Source: an uncultured Methanosarcinales archaeon (GTDB taxonomy: Archaea; Nanobdellota; Nanobdellia; Woesearchaeales; CAYSVS01). From it: DNA of 64,000 bases. Shown one piece after another: positions 1,123 to 53,142 of the stretch (position 1 is its first letter; each line of letters opens with the position of its first letter). A program made the position numbers and the translations under genes. The notes below the pieces were generated by a model. It was not told where the DNA came from and searched no databases. It worked only from the letters and a program-made list of their open reading frames with translations. The stretch covers positions 22,820 through 86,819 of the forward strand of contig CAYSVS010000001.1 in NCBI GenBank assembly GCA_964434475.1, in the 5' to 3' direction.

Positions 1123-1264
1123 TTCTCCTGAATAGTATTTATAGGATATGTATTTTATCGTCAATCAAAAAGTTTATAAATTGCGTGGTTTTTCAGGTTA
1201 AAATAATTGATATATTGATAATAATTTGTTATCATATTATTGGATGATGAGGGGTTGGTTTTTG

Positions 1265-4200
1265 ATGGAAGAAAATGTTAAAAAATCAGATGAAGAGGTT
1301 ATTGATGTAACTAAATATTTTAAAAATATAAAGAACATATTTATTGGAAAGAATAAAGGCTTCAAGCCCTTTTTAAAGGATCATGGATTTTGGTTTATAC
1401 CTTTGTTATGTATATTGATCGCCATGTCTTTTAGTGTTTTTATGAGAATCCAGCCTGCTTATCTTCCTATAACTGATGATTGGGCAGATAATAGTATAGA
1501 AAACTATGTCAAAAGCCAAGTGGAAACAAAGATCAATCAGCAATACCCTAATCTTCCTTCAGAGAACAAGCAATCCCTTATCACAGCTGAGATGCAGAAT
1601 GTTATGAAACAACAGGAAGACCAATTAGTACAGCAAAAAGAAGCACTTAGCCAGCAATATAAAGCAAAGATGCAGGATGAAGATGGAAGAACTTATCTGT
1701 TGGCGATAGATCCTTATTATTGGTATGGTTTGGCAAAGAATAAGATAGAGTATGGTCATTATGGTAATAAGATAAACGAAGAAGGAAAGAGTGTTTATAC
1801 TTTAAGGAATGGCAGGATAGGTAAAAAAGTGACTAGCTTCTTGGTGAATCCTGCTGCCATGGTAATCATATACAGGATTATGCATCTTTTTAACCCTTCT
1901 TTAGATCTTATGGGTGCTGCTTTTTATATGCCTTTGATATTGGTAACATTAACTATAATACCTATTTTTTTTGTAACAAGAAAAGTTGGAGGAAATGTAG
2001 GAGGGTTATTTGCAAGTATAATCTTTGCAGTCAATAGTGCTTTATTAAGCAGGACTCCGGCAGGTTTTGCAGACAGCGATGCATACAATGTATTGTTTCC
2101 AGCTTTTATCGCATGGATGTTGATAGAGGCTTTAGATGCTAAATCTGCAAGAGCTCAAAAAGGATATATCGCTTTAGGCGGCTTGTTCACAGGCTTGTTT
2201 GCTATGGCTTGGTCAGGATGGGGTTTTATGTATGATTTTGTTATAGCTACCATAGGCTTGATGTTTTTGTCGTATATTGTTGTCTATAAGAAAACATTGT
2301 TCGGACCAGAAAAATTATCTGATGGGATAAAGGATTTCTTTAAAAGGTCCAAAGTTAAAAGTATTATTACAATATTGGTAACTTATCTTATATCTGCAGC
2401 ATTGTTTGTCACGCTTTTTGTTGATTTTAACAGCTATACTTCTGCTTTGTTAAAACCTTTAAAGTTCATGAAAATAAAAGATGTTGCTGTAAAAACAGTA
2501 TGGCCTAATGTGATGACTACTGTGGCTGAATTTAATACTGTTGATTTTTCTAAAATAGTCACACAGATGGGCGGCAAACTATTGTTCTATATAGCTATAG
2601 CAGGAATAGTTTTGACAGTATTCAGGAAAGATGAAAGGGATAAGATAGATTTGAAGCATTTCTTTTTGTTGTCCATGTGGTTTGTAGGTACTGCTTATGC
2701 ATTCACTAAAGGAACAAGGTTTGCTTTGCTTATGGTGCCTGCTTTTGCGATAGCGTTCGGTGTTGCTATAGGTTATGTTTTTAAGGTTGTTTCTGAGTGG
2801 TCAAGCAGAGAATTAAAGATAAACATGGAATTATCTAAGATAATGCTTTTCATAGTTCTTGCTTTGCTGCTTGTAAGTCCTGTTAAATCAGGCAACAATG
2901 TTGCTAAACATGAGATCCCGAGTTTCAATGATGCATGGCATGATACTTTGAGAGGGATACATGATGCATCTGATGACTCTATTATAACATCGTGGTGGGA
3001 TTTTGGACATTGGTTTGTAACTATGGGCGAAAGAAGAGTTACTTTTGATGGTGGAGATCAAGGTAAAAGGATACATTGGGTAGGAAGAAGCTTGGTTACA
3101 GATGATGAAGAGGAATCTGCAGCGATACTTAAGATGCTTAATTGCGGACAAGAGGAATCTCATAGAAAATTGAAGGAGTATTTAGAAGATGACTATAAAG
3201 CAGTCATGCTATTGAAAAATATAATCATGATGGATAGGTCAGAAGCTGAACAAATACTGAAAGAAAATGGGTTGAGTGATGCTCAGGTAACTGAAGTTCT
3301 TGACTTATCGCACTGCGATAATCTAATAGATAACTTCTATATCGCTTCTGAAGACATGGTAGGAAAAGCAGGAGTTTGGGGACATTTTGGCAGTTGGGAT
3401 TTTGAGAAAGCTTCAATGTATAATAAGGTAAAGAAAATTAAGTCATACGAAGAAGGCATATCTATACTTAAGGAAGAATTTAATCTAAGTCCTGAGAAGG
3501 CTGACAACTATTATTATGAGATAAAGAACAAGGATGCTGATAAATGGATTTCACCTTGGCCAGGATATTATTCTTCTTTGAGCAATTGTAAGAAAGAAGA
3601 TAATGTTATTTTTTGTAATAATGGCGTAGAGGTAAACTTAAATACAATGGAGCCTTATATCAATTCACAAGGCGGAAGAGTACAGCCTAAAAAGATGGCT
3701 TATCTTGACAGTAATCATGAGTTTAAGGTTAAAGAATTTGAATCAGATATACCTTATGGTATTGCTCTTGTTCTGAACGGAGACAGCTATAGATCTATAT
3801 TGATGAGTCAGGAACAGACAGCTTCCATGTTTACGAGATTGTTCTATTTTGAAGGACACGGCTTAAAATATTTCAAACCTTTTAGTGACAAAACAACATT
3901 CAACGGTCAAAGGATATTAACCTATAGGATGAATTGGGATGCTAATGAGACAAATGAGGTTGAAAAATTCTTGCCTTCTTTGGAGGTAAAGGCGAGCCAT
4001 ATTTTGATTACTATGCAGGAGAATGCTACAGAAGAAGAAAGAAAGCAAAAGTTGTTGAAGATAGAACAGCTGCAGGCAAAAGCATTATCTGGAGATAATT
4101 TTGCGGTTTTGGCAAAAGAAAATTCAGATTGTCCTTCGGGTAAAGAAGGCGGCGATCTAGGATGGTTTGGCAAAGGCAATATGGTAAAGCCTTTTGAAGA

Positions 4201-4384
4201 TGCTGCTTTCAGTCTTGATGTAGGAGAGATGTCTGATGTAGTTGAAACGCGTTTTGGATATCATCTGATATATCTTACAGGAAAAAGAAGGGGCGAATCA
4301 GTAGAAGAGATCAATCTAGAGATTCCTGTTGAAGAAAAACCTGTCAATAAAACAACTGACAAATTTAGGAACGAATACAATTAA
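1265..4384 (+). CDS. aglB: Archaeal oligosaccharyltransferase AglB (STT3 family) with a C-terminal parvulin/PpiC-type peptidyl-prolyl isomerase domain
   Basis: Multi-TM N-terminal half and a WWDFG motif (SWWDFGHWFVTMG) diagnostic of STT3/AglB. The C-terminal ~110 aa (ASHILI...GGDLGWFGKGNMVKPFEDAAFSLDVGEMSDVVETRFGYHLIYL) matches PpiC/parvulin rotamases. The likely start is the ATG at 1265 (MEENVKK) preceded by a GAGGGG SD-like motif; the ORF track opens at 1226. Confidence 0.8.
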   Translation: MEENVKKSDEEVIDVTKYFKNIKNIFIGKNKGFKPFLKDHGFWFIPLLCILIAMSFSVFMRIQPAYLPITDDWADNSIENYVKSQVETKINQQYPNLPSENKQSLITAEMQNVMKQQEDQLVQQKEALSQQYKAKMQDEDGRTYLLAIDPYYWYGLAKNKIEYGHYGNKINEEGKSVYTLRNGRIGKKVTSFLVNPAAMVIIYRIMHLFNPSLDLMGAAFYMPLILVTLTIIPIFFVTRKVGGNVGGLFASIIFAVNSALLSRTPAGFADSDAYNVLFPAFIAWMLIEALDAKSARAQKGYIALGGLFTGLFAMAWSGWGFMYDFVIATIGLMFLSYIVVYKKTLFGPEKLSDGIKDFFKRSKVKSIITILVTYLISAALFVTLFVDFNSYTSALLKPLKFMKIKDVAVKTVWPNVMTTVAEFNTVDFSKIVTQMGGKLLFYIAIAGIVLTVFRKDERDKIDLKHFFLLSMWFVGTAYAFTKGTRFALLMVPAFAIAFGVAIGYVFKVVSEWSSRELKINMELSKIMLFIVLALLLVSPVKSGNNVAKHEIPSFNDAWHDTLRGIHDASDDSIITSWWDFGHWFVTMGERRVTFDGGDQGKRIHWVGRSLVTDDEEESAAILKMLNCGQEESHRKLKEYLEDDYKAVMLLKNIIMMDRSEAEQILKENGLSDAQVTEVLDLSHCDNLIDNFYIASEDMVGKAGVWGHFGSWDFEKASMYNKVKKIKSYEEGISILKEEFNLSPEKADNYYYEIKNKDADKWISPWPGYYSSLSNCKKEDNVIFCNNGVEVNLNTMEPYINSQGGRVQPKKMAYLDSNHEFKVKEFESDIPYGIALVLNGDSYRSILMSQEQTASMFTRLFYFEGHGLKYFKPFSDKTTFNGQRILTYRMNWDANETNEVEKFLPSLEVKASHILITMQENATEEERKQKLLKIEQLQAKALSGDNFAVLAKENSDCPSGKEGGDLGWFGKGNMVKPFEDAAFSLDVGEMSDVVETRFGYHLIYLTGKRRGESVEEINLEIPVEEKPVNKTTDKFRNEYN

Positions 4385-8709: not shown

Positions 8710-9770
8710 GAAAAGATTTTTTTTAGATTTTTTATGTGGTTTTTGGGCATATATTTTAATTTTTTCTCAAAAAATTCTTCAAAGCTTTCTGCGTTGTAGC
8801 TTTCTTTTAGTTTTTCTCGAAAAGTTGATTTAGTCATATCTTTAACATCATTCATAATCTTGATAAAATCAAAAAAATGTCTGTGCTTTTCTGCTCTTTT
8901 AACTATAGCTTCGCGTTCTTCTGCATATATCTCTTTGACCCTTTTTAGCGTGAAAATCTTGGGATGTTTTTTGTGATATCTTTTAAGCAATACATCTTGA
9001 ACAGATAATTCTTTTCTTATAGGTCGTTTGTTAAATAGTAGATTAAAATCAAAAAGAATGGTGTCAAAACCAGCAACTATCCTGTTTCTTGGGCTTAATA
9101 CATCTGAGTATACTTCCAAAAAATCAGCATGGCAATTTGCTCTTATTATGCCGTCAATATAATCTTCGTTTTTAAGCAAAAATTCTTCATTAACCTCATC
9201 CACTGTGTGTCCTTTGATTGAGTCTTCTAAAAACACTGTTCTGTTGAACGTATATTCTGGCATTTCATATTCGCAAATAATATCATATAAGAAACGTCCT
9301 AAAATCCTTGCTGTGTCTGGTTTTTTAGCATATACTGGCCATTTTACTTTGTTTCTATTTTTGTTATATTGTATCTTTATAGGGGTTGAACTTGTATGTA
9401 TCATATAATCTCTTTTTCTTATCTTGAATTCTTGTTTTCTTCTCTTGAACAATGAAGCTAAAGCATTGCAGCATATTCTTTCTGCATCTTTTTTTGCAGA
9501 TTTAGTCTTATTTTTCACAGGATATGTGTAGATATCTTCATATTCTCTATCAGTTTCATAACATCTGGGCACATTTTTTGCATCTTTACCTGTTATGTTT
9601 CTATATGTTATCCTTTTCTTTATATTTGTTTTATCGTCTTTTTTTGGAAGATTTACGTATTGTTTGTGTTTTTTAAAGAAATTTATTATATTTTGAGGTA
9701 TTTCTACGAATTCTTGCCTAAGATCTGTTGCATATAGATTTATTGTTGAATATTTTGCCATGATGATCAA
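8706..9770 (-). CDS. Hypothetical protein (ORFan, K-rich)
   Basis: Long 354-aa ORF with coding-like composition and no motif I can recognise. Confidence 0.4.
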   Translation of the reverse strand: MIIMAKYSTINLYATDLRQEFVEIPQNIINFFKKHKQYVNLPKKDDKTNIKKRITYRNITGKDAKNVPRCYETDREYEDIYTYPVKNKTKSAKKDAERICCNALASLFKRRKQEFKIRKRDYMIHTSSTPIKIQYNKNRNKVKWPVYAKKPDTARILGRFLYDIICEYEMPEYTFNRTVFLEDSIKGHTVDEVNEEFLLKNEDYIDGIIRANCHADFLEVYSDVLSPRNRIVAGFDTILFDFNLLFNKRPIRKELSVQDVLLKRYHKKHPKIFTLKRVKEIYAEEREAIVKRAEKHRHFFDFIKIMNDVKDMTKSTFREKLKESYNAESFEEFFEKKLKYMPKNHIKNLKKIFS

Positions 9771-16634: not shown

Positions 16635-16802
16635 AATTTCAAACATATCTTTTGTAGTTAATCTTGTTTTTAGGTTAGTTTCCAGCTTATTGACGATTAT
16701 GTTTGTATCCATTGTTTTTAGATCAAGTATATTATTTTCTTCTATTTTTATAGAACCTTCAATTGGTTTTATTTCTGATTCTTTAAGTTTGATCTTGTTC
16801 AT
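16626..16802 (-). CDS. Hypothetical small protein (58 aa)
   Basis: The probable start is the ATG at 16802 (MNKIKLKESE...). The track's longer 16850 start runs through an overlapping Zn-ribbon ORF in another frame. Confidence 0.3.
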   Translation of the reverse strand: MNKIKLKESEIKPIEGSIKIEENNILDLKTMDTNIIVNKLETNLKTRLTTKDMFEILK

Positions 16803-16933
16803 TGCATTACACCTCTGCATATTTTTTTTGTCTCTCCGCATGTTGTGCATTCATACACTTCATATTTGACATTAGACATGTTCAGTGTTTCTTTCTTGTA
16901 CATCTCTCCGCCGCATCCGCATTTTATTGACAT
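16799..16933 (-). CDS. Small zinc-ribbon protein (44 aa, absent from the ORF track)
   Basis: Hand translation gives MSIKCGCGGEMYKKETLNMSNVKYEVYECTTCGETKKICRGVMQ with C-x-C...C-x2-C pairs. Its TGA overlaps the downstream ATG (ATGA). Confidence 0.35.
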   Translation of the reverse strand: MSIKCGCGGEMYKKETLNMSNVKYEVYECTTCGETKKICRGVMQ

Positions 16934-17280
16934 GATTATAAGAATGAATAAAGGAGTATATAAATATTGTGGGTCATTGGGATTATCTCTTCTATAAACA
17001 TATTAGATGGATAAGATCTTGTTTTATGTATTTTTCATATGTTTACAGGTATTATCTTTCTCTTTTTTCATTCATATTTGACATTATCTAACTTTTTTAT
17101 AACAGAATTCACTTAAAATATACTTATCATCCACATGAACCTGACTTTGTTCTTCTGTTGTGGCATCAGTATTGCTCTAAAAATTATATTTTTCTGAATT
17201 GCATATTTGTATTGTTTATCCATAGAAGATCATATTTTAGTTTTATTGAAAATCTTGTAGAAATTTGAATGAGGTATAAT

Positions 17281-17435
17281 GCCCTGCACTTTAGTGCGAG
17301 ATATTCAATCTCAAAAAATTGTCTTAATAGTTAGTCCGTAATATCTCTAACTTTAGGTAGGGGATATGCTGACAAATCCTAGGTTTGTGGCATGTTGAAC
17401 AAAGTTCAACAGGACAAACAATCAAAAGACAAATT
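17281..17435. repeat. Copy A of a ~150-bp noncoding element repeated in this window (candidate ncRNA or MITE-like)
   Basis: Shares TTTAGTGCGA...AAAAAATTG...GTAATA...GGATATGCTGACAAATC...GCATGTTGAA...AAAGACAAATT blocks with 51994..52174. Contains the hairpin GTTGAAC-AAA-GTTCAAC. Confidence 0.5.
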
Positions 17436-17479
17436 TTGGTTATTTTAGATATGGTTATATTTTTTAATAAACATTAGCT

Positions 17480-20805: not shown

Positions 20806-20828
20806 AATTATTTCACCTTAAATAAATA

Positions 20829-20903
20829 TGGGGCTACCCAGATTTGAACTGGGGTCTTCTGGTCCCAAACCAGAAAGGATGAACCAAGCTACCCAATAGC
20901 CCC
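20829..20903 (-). tRNA. tRNA-Pro (anticodon UGG), 75 nt, no encoded CCA
   Basis: Hand-folded cloverleaf: acceptor GGGGCUA/UAGCCCC, anticodon stem UCUGG/CCAGA with loop UUUGGGA (U33, UGG, G37), T-arm CCCAG-UUCAAAU-CUGGG, discriminator A. Confidence 0.8.
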
Positions 20904-20990
20904 ATATAGTATACTGTGAAATTTTTGAAGTATATTTAAAGGTTACGGTATTTACGAAGTTTTATAAATAATTGTATTTTTTGTTATATT

Positions 20991-29287: not shown

Positions 29288-32200
29288 TTGAGGGGAAAGA
29301 GAGGATTTAGTAGAGTAAGATTATTGTTGTTAGTTTTTGTTATTTTAGCTATGTCTTCTTATGCTTTGCCTTCTTTTATATCTATCTGGGATGATACTGA
29401 TCTAGGTAAAGTTATGTATCCTTATAATATGACTTATTTCTATGCTAATTATACTAATTCAACTGGGGACGTAATAACGGGCATGACTCCAGTTTGTAAC
29501 ATAACCATTATAAATACAGAAGGTCCAGGTATAGCGGGTCCTATCCCTATGCAGTATAATGCTGTATCTTTTTTATATGAATACAATAACACTTTTGATG
29601 ATGAAGGTTTGATGTTTGGACCAGGCATACATGATTGGAACGTTAGTTGTGCTTATGATCTTTATGATTATAATTCTAGCTCAGATACTGTAAATATTTC
29701 AGGAGATATGGATGAGATTTTCATAGAAAAATACGCCTTAAATGGAACGGTGTATGAAGATGAGATTGTTACATTCATCCTGAATGTAACGAATTTTGGC
29801 ATGGAAAATTATACAGACTTGTTTTTGGTTGATGAGTTCAACATCAGTTATCTAAATTTTAGTGCATCTACAACTTACCCTGTAAATATTATTCCTGAAG
29901 TTAACTATACTTCTGGAGAAGTTGAATGGATGCTTAATTTAAGCGTAGGCCATTCTTTTGTTGCATTAGTGAATTTCACAGCACTTCAAACAGGCAACAC
30001 AACAAACTATGTTTATGTTAAAAACGATACAGAATATTTTGGAGGAGATTTTGAGGAGATTGAAATCTTGTGGGAAGAAGAGCTTTGTAATCTTGATTTT
30101 AGCAATGTTTCATGCATTTCAAGAGAACCTTGGTGTTCCTGGAATGAAGACTATTGGAATCCTTTTACCCAAGAAGATGGATATTGTATGCCTAATTGTT
30201 CTTTGTTGACAGTAGAGGATTGTCAAGATTATCCTTATGAATGCAATTGGAACGGAAGCAGTTGTAATGATCTAGATTGTTATAGTATAGGCATTGAATC
30301 AGAATGTGGCCAGTATGATCAATGTTATTGGGATTTTGAAGAAAGTGATTGCGATCCTAATTGCACCTACTTTAACTATGATAATCCTGAGTTTAATGAG
30401 TCAAGCGACAATATATTTGAGAATGCAAGTATTTGGTGTATGAAAGCTGATTGCGATTGGAATGGAAGCTATTGTATTGAAGATGAAGAAGAGATAAATA
30501 TTTCTGTAAATAAAATTTTGTTGGACTCCAACATCTATCCTGGAGATACTGTTCAGTTTATGATAAACATAACCAATGTTGGAGATAGTGGCTTGGTTAA
30601 TATCTGGGGTTATGATGACTATAATGATACTTTTATGAATTTTACAGGCATAAGCTGCGGATATATGGCTCATGGTTCAAGATGGGTGCAGATTAATTTT
30701 ACTCAATGTGTTGGTGGTGGTTTGCCACCAGGAGAATCTGTTGCTGCATATATTAACTTTACTGCATTAGAATCAGGCAGTACTTTTAACAATGTCAGCG
30801 TTAATGCAACAGATTTTGATATGAATAATATACTTGAATCTGACCAGATAGATTTCGGGATCTTGGGCGGAGAAGAAGGAAGCGAAGCACCTTGTAATAT
30901 TGAGAATGAAACACAGTGTTTTATGAGAAGCGAGTGTATCTGGGATGACATGATGCATAATCCTTTAACTGATAGCAATGGTTATTGTCAGACCAATTGT
31001 TCTTTGTTGACAGTAGAGGATTGTCAAGATTATCCTTATGAATGCAATTGGAACGGAAGCAGTTGTAATGATCTAGATTGTTATAGTATAGGCATTGAAT
31101 CAGAATGTGGCCAGTATGATCAATGTTATTGGGATTTTGAAGAAAGTGATTGCGATCCTAATTGCACCTACTTTAACTATGATAATCCTGAGTTTAATGA
31201 GTCAAGCGACAATATATTTGAGAATGCAAGTATTTGGTGTATGAAAGCTGATTGCGATTGGAATGGAAGCTATTGTATTGAAGATGAAGAAGAGATAAAT
31301 ATTTCTGTAAATAAAATTTTGTTGGACTCCAACATCTATCCTGGAGATACTGTTCAGTTTATGATAAACATAACCAATGTTGGAGATAGTGGCTTGGTTA
31401 ATATCTGGGGTTATGATGACTATAATGATACTTTTATGAATTTTACAGGCATAAGCTGCGGATATATGGCTCATGGTTCAAGATGGGTGCAGATTAATTT
31501 TACTCAATGTGTTGGTGGTGGTTTGCCACCAGGAGAATCTGTTGCTGCATATATTAACTTTACTGCATTAGAATCAGGCAGTACTTTTAACAATGTCAGC
31601 GTTAATGCAACAGATTTTGATATGAATAATATACTTGAATCTGACCAGATAGATTTCGCAATCTTGGGTGGAGAAGAAGATGAAGATAATGTAACTATAA
31701 ACAAGACAGTTATAACCCCGAGTGTTGAAGACGGAAGTATAGCATCATTTATGATAACAGTTAATAACAACGAACCATATAATATTACAAATTATGAAGT
31801 ATATGATTTCTTCAATACTAGTATGATCAATTATACTGCTGCAAGTTATACGCCCGAGGATATTAATTATACTATGGGTAGAGTTATCTGGGTAATCAAT
31901 AATCTTGAGAATTACAGCTCTTTTTCATTCAATGTGAATTTTTCAACATTTATAGAAGGAAATACTACAAATTATGTTGTCCTGAAGAACAGCACAGGAA
32001 ATCATGTTGCGGATGATAACGCAAGTTTAGAGATAACCTTATTTGAGGAAGAAGATGAAGGAATGTATGATTTTGGAGATGCGCCTGACTCTTGCAACCA
32101 TTTCGGAACAGATATGGAGACAGATCCTAGTATGTTTACCAGCGATATAATTGCAAATTATCCTACAGTACATAACATAACCTTAAAAGATAATTGCGGA

Positions 32201-35200
32201 AAAACTTATGGTCCTTGTCATGATAACTATTTTTTGACTTTAGGAAGTAATATAACCTTAGAACAAGAAGCTGATAAAGGAACTGATGAAGATGCTCCTG
32301 ATAATAATATTCAGCCATCAATAAACCAATCTGATTTTGATTCGATCGGAACAAGTTTTGGAATGGATGATGGGCTAGATGCAGCAGGTATTGATTCTAC
32401 AAGTTTAAACCAATTTAATTGGTCACATTGTGAGAATGTCACAATACCTGTAAATATTACTGTAATTGGCGGTCCTTATGCAAGCGATTGGAATGCGACA
32501 TTGAACATTTGGATTGATTATAGTAGGAATGGACAATGGGGCAGTCCCGGAGGGACAGAGGATTATGTCATGTGCGGTATGGATTCTATATCTGAATGGG
32601 TTGTGCAGAATGAAGTTGTAGCTCAGTTAAGTGGTGGCGGATTTGGTCCAGGTTCTTTTCTACACAATGTAACTTTTATGGCACTCTCTAATTTTTCAAA
32701 CTATACTTGGATGAGATTACAGGTGACTCCTACAGAAGTCGATATAATAGATTATGCTGATGGTTCAGGTCCTGCTGTGTGTTATGAAGATGGAGAAACA
32801 GAGGATTATTATGTTAAAATTATGCCTTTGGAAGAAGAGGAAGAAGAGTTTGAGGAGAATGTTACTATAGAAAAAACCGCTTTGTATTCTGAAGTAGAAA
32901 ATGGAAGTATAGCAACATTCATGATAAACGTAACCAATTATAATGATTTTAATATCACTGATTATGTAATATATGATTTCTTCAACACAAGCATGCTGAA
33001 TTATACTGCTGCAAGTTATACGCAAGAGGATGTCAATTATACTGAAGGAAGAGTTGTTTGGGTTATCAATAATCTTCCTGCTTATGAATCATTTGAGTTT
33101 AGTGTAAACTTTACAACATTGATGATAGGAAACACGACCAATGAAGTTATCTTGAAAAATAGTACAGGAGATTATGTTGATGAAGATGAAGCAAGTTTAG
33201 ATATTATTATGGCTGCAGAAATGCCTGTATTCAATTTTAATGGAACAGTGTATGATGATATGGGTAATACTCTTAGCGGAGCGAATGTCAGTGTAGATGT
33301 ATGGAATAATACAGAAGAACCTATCAGGATTTCAGTTGAATCCACTTTAACCGATGGTTCTGGAGAATTTAATATAGCTCTGCCTGAATATGATCTTGTT
33401 GATAATTATATTTACAAGACAAAAGTGTATTTCGATAATGGTACGCATATATTTGTAAGCAAAGCACCTATGTCTTTATTAAAATCACAATTGGTTGGTG
33501 TTTCTCCTGCACAATTCCATATGACAGAAGGCACCAAATTAAATATTAGTTTGATGGAGATTCCTGGCGAATCAAGATGTTTTATGGATACACTTAAGGA
33601 TGGATTAACAGGAGTCAGAGTAGGTGGGATAGAAGGTACAGTTGGAGATGAAAACGAGAACACTTCGATAAATTTCAGTATAATATATGTGCCTACTGGT
33701 AGAGATTATTCTTTAAGGCTTCAGCCTTGCGCAGCCGATCCTTTTTCAAGAGATATTTCTGCTTCTGAATTAAATCCTAATACTGTCACTAATTTACAAT
33801 ATAACTATTCCCAATCTTTTACCTTTGTTAGTGGCTATGTTAATGGAGATAATTTTGATACTTTCCATATAAACAATTTCGCGTTTGAAGCTGATGCTAT
33901 GATAAAGATACTTGGACCTAATCCAAGCAATAGTGCTTCTGAATCAACAGGAAATGGATTAAATACAAATGATACTTATGATGCATCAACTGGCTTCTTT
34001 AACATTAGCCTACCTGGAAAAGTTTCTCCTGGTGCAAATGTATTCTTGTTTTTTGTAGCTGAAAACAGTTCAGGAAGATACGCTGCTTTTAGGAATTATA
34101 CTATAAATTATAATCAGCCAACTTTTGATATAGGGATTATTGATTTGTATAAGATGCAAGGGTATGCTGCAGATAGGCAGATAAAATATAGTTATAGGGA
34201 AAGCAACGGAAACATTACACAAAAACAAACAAACATCACTGAAGTAAATATTTCATTAGTTGATGAAAGCGGATTACCTGTAACAGACACTTTGTTTATC
34301 GAAGCTTCATTTGAATATGATACTTCAGAATTAACTGATTTTTTTATACCTGTAGAGATTCCGGGATATGATTATCAGGGTGAAAGAATATTTTATAATG
34401 GCAAATTTACTGTTCCTGTTTTAGAAGGGGGAAATATTAAGATAAAAGTATATTCTCCTAAATATTCTATCAAGGAATATGATATTTCAAGCGAAGAGAT
34501 AGCTGCATTAAATCCCGGCGACTCTATAGAGTTAAACTTAACCAATTATACTTCAGGAGATATTGCTGGAAGCTTAAGCACAGATGATATATTTATAGAA
34601 TTTTTAGAGGATTCTCCTGAGTGCAGCAAGCCTGATTATGATGCAGATGCATGTGCCAGGATACCAAGACAAACATTGACAGATTTTAATTATATAGATA
34701 GTGCTTTGGGACTTAGCGAGGCTAATATTGTCGTAGGGAGGAATAGTACAGGCTTGTCTGTAATGTATGTTGAAGCTGATCTTTTTACTTCTGGTGCTTT
34801 AGAAGCTTTATTTGATTCTGATGCTGTTGCTTCAGGTTCAGGTGATTCTTTAGAAGAAGCATGGAGATTCGGAAGTATGGGTCCTGATATATATGAACAC
34901 ATCTTGATATCTATGCCTTATAATGACACTTTCAATGAAAGCGAGTTGGGTTTTAATCTAGATTATCTTTATGATGATAATTGGAATATTATCTGGAATG
35001 TTTCTGCTAATGGTACAAATGTTAACATTGATGATTACTTGGATTATTCTTCTGATTATTTTGAAGGGATAGAATGTACAGATGTTAACAAGAGTGCAAA
35101 GTGTTATATCAATACTAGCTTAAATATGGCTTGGATAAGAGTTCCTCATTTTTCGGGAGTTGGACCTGTATTTGGTATTTTGGATGAAGGCGAGGATATA

Positions 35201-38200
35201 GAAAACGCAACAATAACAAAAACTGCAGTTTTATCGCAAGTAGATAATGGTTCAATCGCTCAATTTATAATAAATATTACTAATACTGGCACAGCTAATA
35301 TTACCAATGCAGAACTTGGTGATGAATATAATATTTCTTATATGAACTTTACAGGCTATTCAACTTTAGACTTAGGTATATCTTTGCCAAATGTTATGGG
35401 CAATAGGGTTGAATGGGATGTTAATATTAGTGTTGGAGAAAGCGTATCTTTGATTGTAAACTTTACAACCTATGCAGTAGGCAACACAACCAACGAGGTT
35501 GAGTTTGAGAAAAACGAAACATATGATTTTGATTCTGATGAAGCTAATCTGGAGATTCTTGTTGGTGTTCCTCATTTCATAGAGAACGCTTCTTTGACAA
35601 AGACTGCTTTGAATAGTCCTGTTGATGTGGGTAGTATTGCGCAGTTTATGATTAATGTTACCAATACAGGTAATGTTAATCTTACTGGATATGAATTGAC
35701 TGATAGATTTAATATAAGCTATATGAATTTCACTTGGGCAAGTCAACCACCAAATGATGTGAGGTTTAGTGAAGGCGAAGTTGAATGGGTATTGAACGTA
35801 AGTGTTGGTGAATCTGAAATAATTCATGTGAATTTTACAACCTATAAAACAGGCACAACATTTAATGAGGTAGATTTTGAAAATAGTACTGGTTTTGGAA
35901 TAACTGAGAGTAATGTGGGTATTGAAATTATAGAACCTGCTTCAGATGTATTGCTTGTCAATACTACAGGATATATTAATCAGACAGGATATTTTATACT
36001 TAATTTAACAAATCCTATCCAGGCAGCAATAGATTCTGCAAATATAGGAGATTTGATTAACATATCCGAAGGAGTATATTTAGCAAATATAAGGGTAGAT
36101 AAAAAAATAGAAATTCATGGAGTTAATAAGACAGGTACAATAATAAGTGCTGCGTCTTCTGGAACAGATATCTTTTATGTTCAAGAAGATAAGGTAAATA
36201 TAAGTCAAATGACATTGACGCGTGCAAATACTGGTTCTGTTGCAGGTATACATTTGCATAATGCAAGCAGGTGCGTGGTGGAAAATGTTTTTTCATTTAA
36301 CAATAGTTATGGTGTTTTAATAACAGGAACATCAGATCATCATATTTGTAATGAGAATATAATAAAAAACAATAATCTTAGCCTGAATATTATAAGAAAT
36401 ATAGGTATAGGTTATTCAAATGGGTATTGCGATGATAACGAAATAATCGATAACCATATATCCTTTTCAATACAGGATGGAATTGCAGTATCAAATTCTG
36501 CAAATACAATAATACGTGATAATAAGATATACAATAATACTAATTCTGGTGGCTATGCTATATCTTTGTCAAGTACCACAAACACTTCAATATACGATAA
36601 TGAAATCCTAAATAATTATTATGGGATGAGGATAACTAATCCTTATGTGGGTAATCAGTATCATAATTATATATATGAAAACATCTTAACAGATAATAGG
36701 ATTAATTTCTATATATTGCATAAGGATAATATTATCTTTAACAATACTATAGTTTCTTTTGCAGATTGGGGTTCGTCAAATTATGGTTTTTGGATGGATC
36801 TTGATGCAGCGAACAATACAATATATAACAATATTATAAATATTTCAGGTGTAACAAGTTTGTTTTCTGTAGTGAAACCAAATAATTGGAATACTACAAG
36901 TAGTGCAGATACCAATATTATAGGAAAAAGTGCTTTTGGAGGCAATTTTTGGGCGAACGAATCAGGAGGTTTTTCTGTAACTTGTTCGGACAATGATTTT
37001 GACGGATATTGTGATGCTAATTATGTTTTAGATACTGGCAATATAGATTATTTTCCTTTAGCAGCAGAAATGGGACAGAATCCTACTGTTTTTATAGAAA
37101 ATGCTACATTAACAAAGACAGTTTTGAATAGTACTGTAGCTAACGGCAGTATTGCGCAGTTTATGATTAATGTTACCAATACAGGTAATGTTAATCTTAC
37201 TGGATATGAATTGACTGATAGATTTAATATAAGTTATATGAATTTCACTTGGGCAAGTCAACCACCACATGATGTGAGGTTTAGTGAAGGCGAAGTTGAA
37301 TGGATGTTTAATCTTAGTGTTGGCAGCACCAAAGTAATTTTTGTCAATTTCACCACCTATAAGGTTGGCAATACGACTAATGGAGTTGATCTTGTAAATT
37401 CATCTGATGATGATATAGCTTATGATGATGCTGATCTTGTTATAACTCTTCCTCTTGTTCCATCTAACATCACAACAGTAGGCTTAGGCAGTCCTTGCTT
37501 AAACCATAACGATTATTTTGAAGGTGCAGCAACATCGCCTTTTGAAGGTCCTGTTAATCCTGATTTAAACAAAATGCCTGATTATTTTTCAGCTGATGGA
37601 GATGTTGTGTATATGTTGGCTAATTTCACATATAACGCTACGCATGGTAACTGTTCTAATATGACTGTTACAGCTGATTTCTCTTTAGCGGGTGGAGAAA
37701 GCAATATTCCAGCAGATTTATTTTCATTTACAAATACTAGCGAATCTTATTATTGTATTTTCAATGCATCTGGAACAGTAAATATGAGCAATGATGTTTC
37801 TTTGGATGGCATGTTAATTGCGCCAGTAAACGTAAGCTTTACAGCAACTGACGGAATAAATAATGTTACAGGAAAAGGAAGGAATGCTGTTATAGTTAAT
37901 ACAACTTATGCTCCATCATGTGGAGTTAATCAACCTGATAATTGCACTATTGCAGATTTGGGTGGGTTTACTGGAGATTCAACAGATTTCATCGACTTGG
38001 CGCATAATGGTAATTTCTTTGATTTCGATAATTTAACTTTTGATATTCCAGGACATAGCAAGATAGTGTTTACAGATAATGTTTCAATTCCAAGACCGAG
38101 TGCTATGCAGGGTTTGATGGATTTTGCTGTAGATAATATGTTGATTAACGGAACTATCGGGGTTAATGATTCTAAATATGATGGCAGCTATGATGATAAA

Positions 38201-41200
38201 CCTAACTTAACAGGAATACATGCAGAGCTTACATTCTATAATATCACTGGATTATATGGCATCAATACTCCGCAAGTTATCAAACAGGCGTTTGGTGGAG
38301 GAGCAGTACAACAAGTGTATGTTTCTGGTCAATTTAGTTTTGATCCTGGAACTGGAAATCTTATATTGCCGATAACTTCCTTTTCACAATATACTGTTCA
38401 GGAAGCACCAGAAGAATTGATTGAAAACGCAACAATAACAAAAACTTTGCTTAATGGTCCTTTAACTGTTGGAGATACAGCGGTGTTTATGATAAATGTA
38501 ACCAACACAGGCACAGTTAACTTTACTGAATTTGAGATAAGAGACTCTTGGAATTCTTCTCATATCAATTACACAGCTTCTGCAAGTCCGGACTATTGCG
38601 TATTTGATGAAGTTAATTATACTGACAGTGAAGCATTCTGGCTGCTTAACCTTAGTGTTGGAGATAGCGCATTGCTTTACGTAAACTTTACAACACTTGC
38701 AACTGGAAATACAACAAACGAGATTGACATAGAGAATTCAACAGGCGGTGATATGGCATATGACGATGAAGATATTGAGATTACTTCTGGACAGCAGCCT
38801 ATAAATGTAACTTTGATATATCCGACAAATGGTTTGATTTTGAATGAAAGTTCATTTAATTTAAATTATAGCGTTAACATAGAATCTAATTGCACTTTGT
38901 ATATTAATAATTCAGGAAATTGGACTCCTTACGAAAGTAATGTACACTTGGGAAATTGGAGTGTTGATATGAACTTAGTTGATGGAAATTATATGTGGAA
39001 TGTATACTGCTTTGATGTCAACAATATCTCAAACAATGCTTGGGCTGAAACAAGTAATTTTACTTTTGTTGTTAATGCATATTCTAGAGATTTTTATGAA
39101 ATTGATGATAACTACACTTTAGCTAATTGGATAACAACAGACAATGTTCCGCAACATCATACTTTTAATCCAGTAAATGACAGCGATTGGTTTAAGTTCA
39201 ATACGACTGCACATAATGAATATACAATTGAAACATATAATCTAAGCGGAGGAGCAGATACAATGTTGTTATTGTATGATTCTGATGGGCAGACATATCT
39301 GACTTATGATGACGATTCTGGACCAGGGTATGGTTCTATTTTAAGATTTAAGGAAGAGGAGAATAAGACATATTATGTTTTGGTTGATGATTATTGGTCA
39401 TCAGGAAACTCTTATAATAATGCAACCTATTCAGTTAAGGTGAATTCATCAGCCATATCTAATGTAGGTAGTTATGATAGTTATGAATATGATGATTATG
39501 CTTGGCAGGCGAATGTTTTAGTACCAAATGGCACAGCGCAAAGCCATAACTTTTATCCTGCTGGTGATGAAGATTGGGTTGAGATTAATATGAGTGCGGG
39601 AGCTAGTTATGTGATTGAGACTGGTAATTTAGCTAATGGTGCTGATACTTATATGTTCTTGTATGGTCCTAATGGAAACTTGTTTGCATATAATGATGAT
39701 GTTGATTCAGGTATCATAATAAGTTCAAAAATAGAATGGACTGCAAACGAATCAGGATTGCATTATCTTAAAGTAAGGGATTATGATACTGGAGCTTCAG
39801 GAGGAACTTATGATATATCTGCAACCTATGGACCTAGTATAAATAATATGTTGTGTCATAATGGGACTGGCTGGACATCATGCAGTAATATTTTATATGG
39901 GACTAACTTTTCAAGCGTAAAAGCTAATTGTACATATCCTGCTGGAATCAAGAATGTGACTTTTAGTCTATTAAATGTTGATGATAATAATTATTTCTTT
40001 ACAGAAGAGCAATACACATCAAACACAACAGACTTTTATGAGTATGACATGGGTGATATAGATGTTGATGATTCGGGAGAATGGAATATTATAGTGGAGT
40101 GTACTGCTTCTGATGGTACTTCAACAAATTATACTGAATCTTGGGGGATTGAATGGGGTAAATTATCTACTTATCTTATTGAACCAACAGATAGTATTAA
40201 TATGTTGAAATATAACCTTACAAATATTTCAACAGGTGTAACTTGTACTGGAGGAGAATGTCAAGACATAACTGCGACATTGGATCCTAAGCCAGTGTAT
40301 GTTGATCCTGTGGTTGAAAGTCTAGTTCAAGAATCAGAGCAATATTCTTTGTTTGTTGATCAAAATAAAAAACAAAGTAAAGTGGATAAAATAGAATCGG
40401 ATGCTGTAATTTCAAAACAAAAAAATACATACGCGCCAGAAGAAAAAAGCGTAGAAGAGATGCTTGACGAACAGGGAGAAGTTCCTGTGATAGTTGTATT
40501 GAAAGATGAGGATATTGAGACTGTTGAATCAAAAGGTCAATTATCTTCTTTAGATATTAAAGGACAGTCATGGGAGAATAAAAAAGAGATGATAAAACAG
40601 CAGCAGGATAAAGTGCTTTCAACATTGTCAACAGAGGATAAGAAAACTAAATTCTTGTTCTGGACCATTAAATCAGAAGAGAAAGAGTTTAATCTTAAGA
40701 GAAAGTATGGATTGACAAATGCATTCTCTGGTAAAGTAACTAAATCAGCTTATGAAAAACTAAAGAATAATCCTGATGTTAAATCAGTGCATTATGATAA
40801 GATTGAAAAAATATTGCTTCATGAGTCTGTTCCGCTGATTGAAGCAGACGAGGTTTGGAACTTGCAGTATAATGGAAACAACATAACTGGCAGTGGTGAA
40901 ACAGTTTGTGTGATAGATACTGGAGTTGATTATAATCATGCTGATCTAGGCGGATGCTTTGGAGCAGGATGTAAAGTATTGGGAGGATATGATTTTTATA
41001 ATGATGATGCTAATCCTATGGATGATCATAATGACATAGTAACTGGTCAAGGTCATGGAACTCATTGCGCTGGAATAGTTGCAAGCACCAATTCAGTATA
41101 TACTGGTGTAGCACCTGGTGCAAATATTATTGCTATGAAAGCATGCGATTCAGGTGGTTCTTGCTCGTCATCAGATATATTATCTGGAATTGAATGGTGT

Positions 41201-45219: not shown

Positions 45220-45343
45220 TTACTTATATCGGGCTGATATATTATCGATAAAAAGACATACAACAAATAACAACATTTATAAATGGTACGCGATTTAATC
45301 TTTATTTAATAATGTTAAAACATTATAAAGGGAGGGTTTGAAT

Positions 45344-51551: not shown

Positions 51552-51651
51552 TTTATTTTTGAGTTTTCTGATATATAAAGGTTTTTATTTATTTTTTTAT
51601 CTATTCTACTTGCTAAATATTTTTAAACCTGTGCTTTGTTCTTGTTTTTTT

Positions 51652-51936
51652 ATGACAGAATTTAAAGATTCGAATATTGATGATAAGGTTGTTTGTGAAT
51701 TAGCAAAATATGTGGGTAAGGAAATTCATGTGGAGTATATTAATCAAGACATCGATAAGCACAGGAAAGCTGTTTTGATGTTTCCTCCTAACAAAAGATC
51801 TTTTCATATAGGAAAGGATGATCATTATTCTATTGTTTATTGGAATTTATCTGATAACGGAAAGTTAAATGCAGTTAAATCAATAAAAGATTCTTACGGT
51901 AAGCAAATATATATGAATGATACATTCTATGATTGA
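51652..51936 (+). CDS. Hypothetical small protein (about 94 aa)
   Basis: Probable start at 51652 (MTEFKDSNIDDK). The track's N-terminal 31 aa (from 51559) read like translated AT-rich intergenic sequence. Confidence 0.3.
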   Translation: MTEFKDSNIDDKVVCELAKYVGKEIHVEYINQDIDKHRKAVLMFPPNKRSFHIGKDDHYSIVYWNLSDNGKLNAVKSIKDSYGKQIYMNDTFYD

Positions 51937-51993
51937 CTTTTATTCTTATTATTGACAATCTCGCTCGCTGTATTTTCTGTGATATTCAAATAT

Positions 51994-52174
51994 CCTGCAT
52001 TTTAGTGCGAAAATTTCAACGCTAAAAAATTGCTTTGTTACTTTTGGCGTGCCAAAAATATGTCTTAATGACAATTCTGTAATACTTCAACCTTTATGTG
52101 GAGGATATGCTGACAAATCATAGATTTGCTGCATGTTGAAATTTGTTAAATAGAATTAACAATAAAGACAAATT
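51994..52174. repeat. Copy B of the ~150-bp repeated noncoding element (carries a ~30-bp insertion relative to copy A)
   Basis: Aligns block by block with 17281..17435 (TTTAGTGCGA, AAAAAATTG, GTAATAC, GGATATGCTGACAAATC, GCATGTTGAA, AAAGACAAATT). Lies in the convergent gap between two gene ends. Confidence 0.5.
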
Positions 52175-52212
52175 AATGTTATTTTTATTATGATGGTTTA
52201 TTTATATCTACC

Positions 52213-53142
52213 TTATTCAGTCAATCCTTCGCAATCATAGATAGATATATGTTCTTGGTCAAGTCTGAACCATATAGGTAATCCTTGTATATTGTAGTAT
52301 TTAGGGTTTAGATCAGAGAAATATATGTAATCTACCACTGACTTTTCTTCAATATTTATGTTATTATTTACAAGATTCTCAATATTCACTAGGCTTTCTA
52401 TCCCCTTATCATTTGCAGTTGTTTTTCCTTCTAACCTGTCAAGATAGCTTGGCCCTAAATCTGATGCTATGTAGTGTTGGCTTAGTGTATGATTCAATAG
52501 TTTTTCTGTTTTGTTATTTTCAATAAAATTGGAGTATGGGCTTTTTTTGATTATATTTGGAACTTTGCCTAACGTATTAATAGAGTATAAAGGATCTTCT
52601 AATCCTTTTATGCTTATTTTGCTTTTGATTGTTTTATTGTATCTGAATTCTGCAATATCACTTTTGTCTTTTAATTCTATATCTGCTTTTAATCTTATTT
52701 CAACGAACCAAGGATCGGTTTGATATATATCTATAGAGATTATGCTTATATTTGAGATAATATTCATATAATCTGCTTTTTCTTTTACTTTGTTAAGCCA
52801 TAGTGCTAGATTGGTATTGTTCATCATCCGAGATTCTTGCCCGTCTAATGTGCTGTTTATGAACAGTTCTTTAAAATCTTTATTGACATTGTCACTGAAT
52901 TCTCTTTTTTCTACTATGTTATCTGTTATTGATGTTAATGCTCTTGAACCTATTATTTCAGATGCTCTTTCTATGTCTCTTTCGAAATCTTCAATAAAGT
53001 AGTTCATTGTATTGACTCTTTTTTTGATAAGATCTCTATCTTTATCTTTTTCTTCGTTTAATGTAAAAGCTGTTAGCAGGAGTGAAACCAGTAAAATTGT
53101 GCTTACTGTAAAAAACATTGCTTTTTTATTTTTTAATGCCAT
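52213..53142 (-). CDS. Pilin-like protein (309 aa) with type IV pilin-type N-terminus
   Basis: N-terminus MALKNKKAMFFTVSTILLVSLLLTAF (basic residues then a hydrophobic helix). Last gene of the minus-strand pilin operon. Confidence 0.5.
   Translation of the reverse strand: MALKNKKAMFFTVSTILLVSLLLTAFTLNEEKDKDRDLIKKRVNTMNYFIEDFERDIERASEIIGSRALTSITDNIVEKREFSDNVNKDFKELFINSTLDGQESRMMNNTNLALWLNKVKEKADYMNIISNISIISIDIYQTDPWFVEIRLKADIELKDKSDIAEFRYNKTIKSKISIKGLEDPLYSINTLGKVPNIIKKSPYSNFIENNKTEKLLNHTLSQHYIASDLGPSYLDRLEGKTTANDKGIESLVNIENLVNNNINIEEKSVVDYIYFSDLNPKYYNIQGLPIWFRLDQEHISIYDCEGLTE

What the first reader, a model, noticed from the sequence alone, without database searches (positions are those of the whole stretch)
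17281..17435. Repeated ~150-bp noncoding element (copy A) containing a perfect hairpin: candidate ncRNA or miniature mobile element
Copy A and copy B (51994..52174) share long conserved blocks in the same order, but B has a ~30-bp insertion. Both lie downstream of unrelated minus-strand genes (the DRG GTPase and a pilin). Copy A contains GTTGAAC-AAA-GTTCAAC (7-bp stem) and GCAC-TTTA-GTGC. A third partial TTTAGTGAGCGAG motif occurs at ~18935. This is not explained by any protein-coding feature.
Basis: seen in the sequence. Interest (0 to 1): 0.55.

Follow-up and report, generated by a model that had tools for sequence, protein, structure and literature searches.

The report
Two-copy hairpin-rich intergenic repeat, archaeal
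A roughly 170-200 base non-coding sequence occurs twice in this DPANN (Woesearchaeota-like) archaeal contig, each time just behind the stop codon of an unrelated gene. It is real but has no relatives in any database searched, and it is most likely a duplicated 3'-end/terminator module or a small RNA gene of modest interest.

Summary
The repeat is real. Copy A (17283-17447) and copy B (51994-52186) are 77% identical (blastn E 1e-21), collinear, and non-coding in all six frames. B carries a 30-nt self-contained hairpin insertion. The claimed third partial copy near 18935 is a chance 8-mer.

No relative was found in Rfam, GTDB genomes, JGI metagenomes, IMG/VR, phage or plasmid collections, or the syntenic loci of the nearest relatives. 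In those relatives the flanking genes sit 38-83 bp apart, so both copies lie in lineage-specific spacers.

Neither strand has a TATA box of the strength seen at 20 promoters of this genome. GC content equals background. Each copy starts 5-33 nt after the stop codon of a minus-strand gene. An A-tract, a long-range inverted repeat (TGTCTT/AAGACA) and T-tracts give U-tract terminator signals in both directions.

Structure conservation between the copies is weak. B does not keep A's predicted pairs, although it folds better than random mutants (p about 0.03).

Best reading (about 0.4): a low-copy dispersed intergenic repeat acting as a structured 3'-end/bidirectional terminator module. The main rival (about 0.3) is an independent plus-strand small RNA gene pair. 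Interest is low to moderate.

The parts
17283..17447 (+). Copy A, core homology block (165 nt, GC 34%)
   Evidence: Aligns with B at 77% identity, E 1e-21. All six frames have stops. RNA fold z = -4.3 to -4.8 on the + strand and -2.8 on the - strand.
51994..52186 (+). Copy B, core homology block (193 nt, GC 29%)
   Evidence: Fold z = -2.1 (+) and -3.0 (-). Carries more A/T at the differing sites (34 of 44 against 22 of 44 in A), so it looks like the more decayed copy.
17243..17255 (+). Upstream conserved motif TTATTGAAAATCT, 27 nt before the core of A. The B counterpart is 51949-51961, TTATTGACAATCT, 32 nt before the core of B.
   Evidence: 12 of 13 identical, with a non-conserved spacer after it. 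It scores only 0.5 bits against this genome's TATA matrix, so a promoter role is not supported.
17285..17298 (+). Hairpin P1, UGCAC-UUUA-GUGCG. The B counterpart is 51996-52009, UGCAU-UUUA-GUGCG.
   Evidence: Five pairs are kept in both copies, with one C-G to U-G change.
17313..17318 (.). A6 tract, which is T6 on the - strand. It is conserved in B at 52024-52029.
   Evidence: It is the first T5+ run on the - strand after the DRG stop codon, at +162.
17320..17325 (.). 5' arm TGTCTT of the long-range inverted repeat P2. In B it is 52061-52066.
   Evidence: Pairs with AAGACA. Invariant in both copies (I1).
17426..17431 (.). 3' arm AAGACA of the long-range inverted repeat P2. In B it is 52165-52170.
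   Evidence: A T/U-tract follows within 1-2 nt on either strand in A.
17362..17378 (+). Invariant 17-nt block GGATATGCTGACAAATC. In B it is 52103-52119.
   Evidence: Exactly two matches in the window. All exact matches in public collections are chance hits with no flanking similarity.
17373..17387 (+). Hairpin P5, CAAAUC-CUA-GGUUUG. In B it is 52114-52128, CAAAUC-AUA-GAUUUG.
   Evidence: Six pairs are kept, with one U-G to U-A change.
17394..17410 (+). Perfect 7-bp hairpin GTTGAAC-AAA-GTTCAAC. It is perfect in copy A only; B at 52135-52151 keeps 5 of 7 pairs.
17434..17446 (+). Two T4 tracts (TTTTGGTTATTTT) at the 3' edge of A. B has GTTATTTTT (T5) at 52178-52186.
   Evidence: Archaeal terminators are U4-U7 tracts and need no hairpin (PMC8716108).
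52031..52060 (+). 30-nt insertion present only in B, with hairpin TTTTGGC-GT-GCCAAAA (52042-52057). It is flanked by the short direct repeats AAAAATTTG / AAAAATATG.
   Evidence: (I14).
16934..17479 (.). Lineage-specific 546-bp spacer between the DRG stop codon and the start of the Zn-ribbon gene. It holds copy A.
   Evidence: In relatives with 71%-identical DRG this gap is 38 bp (L126/L128) and contains nothing similar.
51552..52212 (.). Lineage-specific 660-bp spacer between the stop of the pilin-like gene and the start of Memo. It holds copy B and an orphan 94-aa ORF (51652-51936, + strand).
   Evidence: In the nearest relative (L135, Memo 63% identical) the gap is 82 bp. The ORF has only a self-hit among 5.8 billion proteins.

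Best explanation
The element is a low-copy, lineage-restricted, hairpin-rich intergenic repeat. It was placed, by duplication or some form of mobilisation, between pairs of co-directional minus-strand genes that are adjacent in relatives. It is most likely not an independent gene. It is probably transcribed as the 3' untranslated tail of flanking transcripts: the DRG and pilin-operon mRNAs on the - strand, and whatever reads in on the + strand, such as the orphan ORF upstream of B.

Proposed action: a branched stem closed by the invariant TGTCTT/AAGACA helix forms in the RNA. It is bordered by an A6 tract on one side and T4-T5 tracts on the other, so transcripts from either direction meet a U-tract right after the closing stem and stop there. 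This would make it a bidirectional terminator/insulator and possibly a 3'-end stabiliser.

Shown here: repetition, non-coding nature, position, sequence signals and absence from relatives.
Inferred, not shown: transcription, termination and the folding itself.
For: - Both copies begin 5-33 nt after the stop codon of a - strand gene, in the same orientation relative to that gene.
- The first T5+ run on the - strand after those stop codons lies inside the element, at +162 (DRG) and +155 (pilin-like gene). About a dozen genes in this window have one within 40 nt.
- The conserved A6 tract, the invariant inverted repeat TGTCTT/AAGACA and the T-tracts form a 19-nt, 79%-complementary extended inverted repeat around about 100 nt (I1).
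- A U4-U6 tract starts 1-2 nt after the closing helix in three of the four strand/copy combinations.
- Archaeal termination uses U4-U7 tracts, and efficiency rises with two tracts (PMC8716108).
- There is no TATA box of genome-typical strength on either strand. The best candidates score 3.1-5.0 bits, against 6.6-11.6 bits for 20 promoters of this genome including tRNA-Pro.
- GC content is 29-34%, the same as background (about 32%) and well below tRNA-Pro at 53%.
- Relatives have the flanking genes 38 bp and 82 bp apart with no such element.
- Both strands fold better than shuffles.
- B folds better than random mutants of A on both strands (p about 0.03), as expected for a DNA-level palindromic module.
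Against: - With only two copies, the shared position and orientation could be coincidence.
- About 100 nt of branched structure is far more than an archaeal terminator needs, and hairpins are not required for archaeal termination.
- Many genes in the window also lack a nearby T5+ run, so the 'first terminator' argument is soft.
- Hairpin P1 (16 of 17 nt conserved) lies beyond the - strand T6 tract, so termination of the - strand genes does not explain it.
- Four of five one-sided stem substitutions are G-U-compatible only on the + strand. Copy A also folds much better on the + strand (-47.7 against -38.5 kcal/mol). Both hint at a + strand RNA under selection.
- No transcript data exist.
Confidence: 0.4

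Rival explanations
1. The two copies are paralogous genes for an undescribed small structured RNA of about 165-200 nt, transcribed from the + strand. The RNA would have a 5' hairpin P1, an A-rich linker, a multi-stem domain closed by UGUCUU/AAGACA, and a 3' U-tract terminator. It would act in trans on an unknown target or partner.
For: - Conserved blocks alternate with variable stems, and the B-specific insertion is a self-contained hairpin.
- P1, P4 and P5 change by C-G to U-G or U-G to U-A, which keeps pairing only on the + strand.
- The consensus fold is -19.95 kcal/mol on the + strand against -14.3 on the - strand.
- Copy A has z -4.3 to -4.8 on the + strand.
- The pattern of a conserved upstream motif, a non-conserved 27-32-nt spacer and a conserved body looks like promoter plus transcript.
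- The + strand ends in U4-U4 (A) or U5 (B) tracts.
Against: - The upstream motif scores 0.5 bits as a TATA box. No + strand TATA reaches the weakest real promoter; the best are 3.1 bits (A) and 4.9 bits (B).
- No Rfam match even at E = 10.
- GC content is at background level.
- B breaks 21 of A's 61 predicted pairs, no better than random mutants (mean 19.5, p = 0.8).
- The consensus energy is under half of the mean single-sequence energy.
- Strand evidence from wobble pairs is 4 to 1, which is not significant.
- There are no homologues in relatives or any collection.
Confidence: 0.3
2. The element is a functionless relic. A non-coding segment, possibly the end of a defunct mobile element or MITE-like sequence, was copied to a second site long ago, and both copies are now decaying neutrally. 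The hairpins would be inherited palindromes with no present role.
For: - A longest identical run of 17 nt is within expectation for 77% identity over 163 nt (own calculation, P about 0.36).
- B is enriched in A/T at the differing sites: 21 GC-to-AT differences against 9 AT-to-GC differences relative to A. B has also lost the perfect hairpin. Both are signs of decay under AT mutation pressure.
- Both copies lie in spacers absent from relatives.
- No structure is conserved beyond short hairpins.
Against: - Two 165-nt non-coding relics surviving at 77% identity is unexpected in a small, gene-dense DPANN genome with a presumed deletion bias.
- The homology boundaries are sharp while the flanks are random.
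- There are no terminal inverted repeats, no target-site duplication and no transposase.
- B folds better than random mutants of A (p about 0.03).
Confidence: 0.2
3. The element is a DNA-level protein-binding or recombination site. The nested palindromes GCAC-N4-GTGC and ATATGC...CAAATC-N3-GATTTG...GCATGT would bind a dimeric regulator or recombinase. The two direct copies might then be att-like borders of the 34.7-kb interval between them.
For: - The nested inverted repeats are conserved in both copies.
- The two copies are in direct orientation.
Against: - The interval between the copies holds housekeeping genes (eRF1, L37ae, prefoldin, aIF5A, tRNA-Pro, MscS, DRG). Their order is conserved in relatives that lack the repeat.
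- No integrase or recombinase is present in the window.
- Identity is spread over 165 nt at 77%, rather than concentrated in an identical core as in att sites.
Confidence: 0.05

Closest known systems
Small dispersed intergenic repeats of bacteria (ERIC/IRU elements of enterobacteria; Correia/NEMIS elements of Neisseria; RUP/BOX of pneumococci). Comparison from my own knowledge of the literature, not tested here.
   Same: - 100-250 bp, non-coding and imperfectly palindromic.
- Located in intergenic regions next to gene ends, where they are co-transcribed.
- Variants differ by discrete internal insertions or deletions.
- They can provide terminator, processing or stability signals.
   Different: - Those families have tens to hundreds of copies and are conserved across species. 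Here there are two copies in about 69 kb and none found elsewhere.
- Correia elements have terminal inverted repeats and TA duplications, which are absent here.
- The host here is a DPANN archaeon, and there is no sequence similarity to any of them.
Archaeal U-tract transcription terminators (PMC8716108)
   Same: - U4-U6 tracts at both edges, on both strands.
- Two U4 tracts on the + strand of A, the arrangement that gives high termination efficacy in Methanococcus.
   Different: - Ordinary archaeal terminators are short U-rich stretches without a required hairpin and are not homologous between loci.
- This is a 165-200-nt homologous module with a branched inverted-repeat core.
Multicopy small RNA paralogues (for example bacterial Qrr, PrrF, OmrA/B; archaeal sRNAs of Methanosarcina or Haloferax). 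From my own knowledge.
   Same: Two intergenic paralogues at about 77% identity, with conserved single-stranded blocks, variable stems and a U-tract end.
   Different: - No recognisable promoter.
- No conserved fold between the copies.
- No homologues in related genomes.
- No target complementarity found in the window (searched both strands).
MITEs and IS200/IS605-derived palindrome-associated elements
   Same: - Short and non-coding.
- Found in spacers that relatives lack.
- Contains hairpins near both ends in copy A.
   Different: - No terminal inverted repeats or target-site duplication at the homology boundaries.
- The two subterminal hairpins are unrelated in sequence, and the right one is not kept in B.
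- No TnpA, TnpB or other transposase in the window.

Membership tests
Any Rfam 15 RNA family | Covariance-model score at or above the gathering threshold | tested here: not met
   The whole window at gathering threshold gives only tRNA-Pro. Permissive scans of both copies give best hits of 13-20 bits against thresholds of 37-158, with E about 0.6-10.
Box C/D sRNA | C box RUGAUGA near the 5' end, D box CUGA near the 3' end, joined by a terminal stem or K-turn | tested here: not met
   There is no exact RUGAUGA on either strand. The conserved AUGCUGA and AUGUUGA differ at the essential A4. The single CUGA lies 5' of the only near-C boxes, which occur in B only.
Box H/ACA sRNA | Hairpin with a pseudouridylation pocket, a K-turn or K-loop in the upper stem, and ACA immediately 3' of the lower stem | tested here: inconclusive
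   ACA occurs inside the AAGACA arm, not after a stem. No tandem G-A K-turn could be drawn in the conserved hairpin (inspection). No rRNA from this organism was available to test guide complementarity.
MITE | Terminal inverted repeats at the element boundaries | tested here: not met
   The inverted-repeat search finds only an internal repeat (17307-17325 / 17426-17444). Homology extends at least 25 nt outside it on the left.
MITE | Target-site duplication, many near-identical copies and a partner transposase | tested here: not met
   No flanking direct repeats were found. There are two copies at 77% identity in about 69 kb. No transposase domain was found in the window proteins scanned. The rest of the genome could not be searched.
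Diversity-generating retroelement TR/VR pair | Mismatches confined to adenines of one copy, VR inside a coding 3' end, and a reverse transcriptase nearby | tested here: not met
   Of 44 mismatches, only 11 have A in copy A and 16 have A in copy B, and all substitution classes are present. Both copies are non-coding. No reverse transcriptase is in the window.
attL/attR of an integrated element | Identical core repeats flanking foreign DNA that carries an integrase | tested here: not met
   The interval contains housekeeping genes syntenic with relatives that lack the repeat. Identity is 77% and diffuse. No integrase was found.
Bidirectional transcription terminator | Inverted repeat flanked by an A-tract upstream and a T-tract downstream, so that either strand reads stem then U-tract | tested here: met
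   A: AAAAAAT-TGTCTT ... AAGACA-AA-TTTT-GG-TTATTTT. B: the same arms, with T5 and T6 on the - strand and T5 on the + strand. This is met at sequence level only.
Bidirectional transcription terminator | Transcript 3' ends map to the U-tracts | not testable with these tools
   No transcriptome data are available for this uncultured organism.
Independent archaeal RNA gene | BRE/TATA promoter about 25-35 nt upstream of the transcript start | tested here: not met
   A position-weight matrix from 20 promoters of this window gives site scores of 6.6-11.6 bits. The best candidates near the copies are 3.1 bits (A+), 4.9 bits (B+), 5.0 bits (A-) and 4.5 bits (B-).

The most novel reading that the evidence does not exclude
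The two copies are paralogous genes of a previously undescribed structured small RNA family specific to a Woesearchaeota lineage. The RNA would be expressed from a non-canonical promoter (the conserved TTATTGAMAATCT motif), with a conserved 45-nt core hairpin (GGAUAUGC-UGA-CAAAUC...GAUUUG-NN-GCAUGUU) serving as a protein- or RNA-binding platform.
Probability: 0.25. Interest if true: 0.45.

Novelty: new member of a known kind. Interest (0 to 1): 0.27.

Why it matters
If the terminator/insulator reading is right, this would be an example from a reduced DPANN genome of a copied non-coding module breaking up formerly adjacent, co-directional genes (DRG with the Zn-ribbon gene; the pilin operon with Memo) and redefining transcription-unit boundaries. 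If the small-RNA reading is right, it would add a lineage-specific RNA family to a group of archaea for which I found no described regulatory RNAs in two literature searches. Either way the element is confined to one uncultured genome, has only two known copies and has no experimental handle, so its general importance is limited.

Tried and rejected
- Coding potential. All six frames have stops. The longest shared frame (LHFSA...GYADKS) is interrupted in A and has no start codon in B. Mismatches show no periodicity.
- Third copy at 18935. This is a chance 8-mer.
- Homologues elsewhere. Exact-pattern scans were run against GTDB genomes, JGI metagenomes and IMG/VR. All hits lacked flanking similarity when checked with blastn or nhmmer. 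blastn against phages and plasmids found nothing.
- Synteny route. DRG and Memo homologues of the nearest relatives were fetched. The element is absent from them.
- Orphan ORF as a partner gene. The 94-aa ORF upstream of B has no homologue and no Pfam domain. A 17-nt match between its start region and the left flank of A is not significant (16 of 300 shuffles reach it).
- Assembly break as evidence of extra copies. The Logan contigs break inside copy A (17386-17413), but a similar break occurs in ordinary sequence at 9571-9594.
- DGR, att sites, C/D box, MITE and IS200/605 derivatives. These were rejected; see the membership tests.
- Covariation statistics. With two sequences there is no power; shuffles equal the observed value.
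- Sigma-70 promoter and intrinsic-terminator scan. This is not applicable to archaea and found nothing above background.

Full report
**Context**

The window is chromosomal DNA of an AT-rich (about 32% GC) DPANN archaeon. The DRG GTPase next to copy A has best named hits in Candidatus Woesearchaeota and Nanoarchaeota MAGs. Its nearest non-self relatives are only 70-71% identical. The same sequence occurs in Logan contigs of run SRR7048224 and in an 87-kb NCBI contig.

The genes are housekeeping ones: aIF2/IF-2, eRF1, L37ae, prefoldin, aIF5A, a HerA-like ATPase, MscS and Memo. There are also two giant surface proteins and a type IV pilus-like locus. No transposase, integrase, reverse transcriptase or Cas/TnpB-like protein was found among the proteins scanned.

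**Check of the observation**

The two copies are real.
- MAFFT and blastn align 17283-17447 with 51994-52186 at 125/163 identities, E 1e-21 in the window.
- The blocks GGATATGCTGACAAATC and CCTGCAYTTTAGTGCGA each occur exactly twice, against about 0.2 expected.
- B has a 30-nt insertion (52031-52060) that is itself a 7-bp hairpin. It is bordered by the short direct repeats AAAAATTTG / AAAAATATG, so the difference may equally be a deletion in A.
- Weaker collinear similarity extends outward to an upstream motif TTATTGAMAATCT (17243-17255 / 51949-51961) and to ATGGTT(T)AT on the right (17451-17460 / 52193-52201).
- All six frames contain stops in both copies. The 38 core mismatches show no codon periodicity.
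- The 'third partial copy' at 18935 is not supported. Only CTTTAGTG is shared, an 8-mer present three times in the window. Neither nhmmer nor a covariance model finds anything there.

**Search for relatives**

- Rfam gives nothing at gathering thresholds or at E up to 10 on either copy.
- Exact-pattern scans were designed around the invariant blocks, including one that lets the central hairpin covary. In GTDB species genomes, JGI metagenomes and IMG/VR they found only chance matches, often inside bacterial coding genes. None had flanking similarity.
- Phage and plasmid collections gave no blastn match.
- The element is therefore an orphan as far as these tools can see. The rest of the source genome could not be searched.

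**Synteny**

In relatives with 71%-identical DRG (L126, L128, L130), the DRG stop codon is followed after 38 bp by a small Zn-ribbon ORF and then, convergently, by HerA. The window has the same genes, but 546 bp separate DRG from the Zn-ribbon ORF (16934-17479), with copy A at the DRG-proximal end.

In the nearest relative for the other locus (L135, Memo 63% identical), the pilin-like gene is followed after 82 bp by Memo. The window has 660 bp there (51552-52212). This spacer holds copy B at the pilin-proximal end plus an oppositely oriented 94-aa ORF whose only hit among 5.8 billion proteins is itself.

Outside the element the two spacers are not detectably homologous. Both copies thus sit in lineage-specific spacers between co-directional genes. 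Each starts 5-33 nt after the upstream gene's stop codon, in the same orientation relative to that gene.

**Is it an RNA gene?**

Evidence in favour:
- Copy A folds well on the + strand (-47.7 to -50.3 kcal/mol, z -4.3 to -4.8) and less well on the - strand (-38.5 kcal/mol, z -2.8).
- The two-sequence consensus fold is better on the + strand (-19.95 against -14.3 kcal/mol).
- Four substitutions in helices P1, P4 and P5 keep pairing through G-U on the + strand only, against one that would do so on the - strand.
- A segment next to GUAAUA pairs with a downstream segment in both copies using different sequences (GUCC/GGAC in A, AAUUCU/AGAAUU in B), though with a one-nucleotide register shift (my reading).

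Evidence against:
- I derived a TATA matrix from 20 promoters of this window, including tRNA-Pro. Their TATA boxes sit 29-34 nt before mostly leaderless start codons and score 6.6-11.6 bits. The best candidates near the element score 3.1-5.0 bits on either strand, and the conserved upstream motif scores 0.5 bits.
- GC content (34% and 29%) equals background, whereas tRNA-Pro has 53%.
- In a permutation test that re-places the observed substitutions at random on A, real B breaks as many of A's predicted pairs as random mutants do (21 against a mean of 19.5, p = 0.8). B is nonetheless more foldable than the mutants on both strands (p about 0.03).
- Copy B shows no strand preference (z -2.1 on + against -3.0 on -).
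- With two sequences, formal covariation has no power.

Overall there is palindromic character that is partly maintained, but no demonstrably conserved RNA fold and no recognisable promoter.

**What the sequence signals suggest**

The invariant arms TGTCTT and AAGACA close the central 100 nt in both copies. They are embedded in a longer imperfect inverted repeat, AATCTCAAAAAATTGTCTT / AAGACAAATTTTGGTTATT.
- A - strand transcript therefore reads closing stem then U6.
- A + strand transcript reads closing stem then U4-GG-UUAUUUU in A, or U5 in B.
- In B the - strand additionally meets U5 immediately after the stem.

U4-U7 tracts are the archaeal termination signal. Two tracts raise efficiency, and a hairpin is not required (PMC8716108).

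On the - strand, the first run of five or more T after the DRG and pilin-like stop codons lies inside the element, at +162 and +155. About a dozen genes in this window have such a run within 40 nt. The DRG and pilin-operon mRNAs are therefore expected to run through the core and end at the conserved U6. Transcripts on the other strand, such as that of the orphan ORF whose first T5 is at +246, would end at the opposite edge.

**Preferred explanation**

I favour, at about 0.4, a copied intergenic module that acts in cis as a structured 3' end and two-way terminator/insulator. It is comparable in kind to the small dispersed repeats of bacteria (ERIC, Correia). That comparison is from memory and concerns kind only, since there is no sequence relation.

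Weak points of this reading:
- There are only two copies.
- The 100-nt core is superfluous for termination.
- The - strand role leaves the well-conserved P1 hairpin unexplained.
- The T5+ argument is soft, because many genes here also lack a nearby run.

**Rivals**

- An independent + strand sRNA pair remains plausible (about 0.3). The wobble pattern, the P1 hairpin and the 'conserved motif, free spacer, conserved body' layout support it.
- A functionless decaying relic (about 0.2) fits three observations. The block pattern is statistically unremarkable for 77% identity (own calculation, P about 0.36 for a run of 17 or more). B is biased toward A/T at the differing sites (21 GC-to-AT against 9 AT-to-GC). 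B has also lost the perfect hairpin.
- A DNA recombination or att role is essentially excluded by the conserved housekeeping synteny between the copies.
- DGR, C/D box, MITE and IS200/605-derivative readings each fail a defining feature.

**Verdict**

The feature is genuine but small and orphan. It is best filed as a new, unnamed member of the known kind 'dispersed hairpin-rich intergenic repeat or candidate ncRNA'. The decisive data are the copy census in the full genome, covariation from more copies, and transcript ends. None of these is reachable with the tools here. Interest is low to moderate.

Noticed in passing
window 51652-51936 (+): A 94-aa ORF directly upstream of copy B is a complete orphan. 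Its only hit among 5.8 billion clustered proteins is itself, and it has no Pfam domain. It has a genome-typical TATA box (ATTTTTAAAC, 33 nt before the ATG). It lies in a spacer that the nearest relative lacks.
   Followed up: partly
window 16799-16933 (-) and L126 11334-11465: A small CxxC...CxxC Zn-ribbon ORF (44 aa) follows DRG in relatives at 38 bp, like an operon partner. In the window it is 546 bp away and has its own canonical TATA box (TTTATATAC, about 32 nt before the ATG).
   Followed up: partly
window 1226-4384 (+): An oligosaccharyltransferase STT3/AglB (Pfam STT3, STT3-PglB core) is fused at its C-terminus to a PpiC-type peptidyl-prolyl isomerase domain (residues 918-1020). This domain combination looks unusual to me.
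   Followed up: no
window 29288-44566 (+) and 45338-50602 (+): Two giant ORFs of 5092 and 1754 aa lie here. The 1754-aa one has an N-terminal signal-like helix, repetitive Asn/Thr/Ser-rich domains and a C-terminal transmembrane anchor, which suggests a surface protein; the 5092-aa ORF's sequence was not read. Neither was analysed further.
   Followed up: no
window 52213-61005: A type IV pilus-like locus. It has five minus-strand genes with pilin-like N-termini (KKA followed by a hydrophobic helix), one of them an 869-aa VWA-domain protein. They diverge from a T2SSE ATPase and two T2SSF membrane proteins.
   Followed up: partly
window-wide (upstream regions of about 20 genes): TATA boxes (TTTATAWA / TTTAAATA) sit 29-34 nt upstream of the ATG for most genes. 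This implies largely leaderless mRNAs in this organism.
   Followed up: partly
window 17386-17413 and 9571-9594: Logan contigs from SRR7048224 break with 24-28-nt overlaps at these two places. The first is inside copy A around its perfect hairpin. The second is in ordinary coding sequence, so the break is not evidence for extra copies.
   Followed up: yes
window 17093-17109 versus 51646-51662: A 17-nt stretch TTTTTTATRACAGAATT (16 of 17 identical) is shared between the left flank of copy A and the start-codon region of the orphan ORF upstream of copy B. The match is collinear with the repeat but not significant (16 of 300 shuffles reach it).
   Followed up: yes
window 20828-20904 (-): tRNA-Pro(TGG), 53% GC, with a canonical TATA box (CTTTAAATAT) about 37 nt upstream. 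It lies directly upstream of the L37ae gene.
   Followed up: partly
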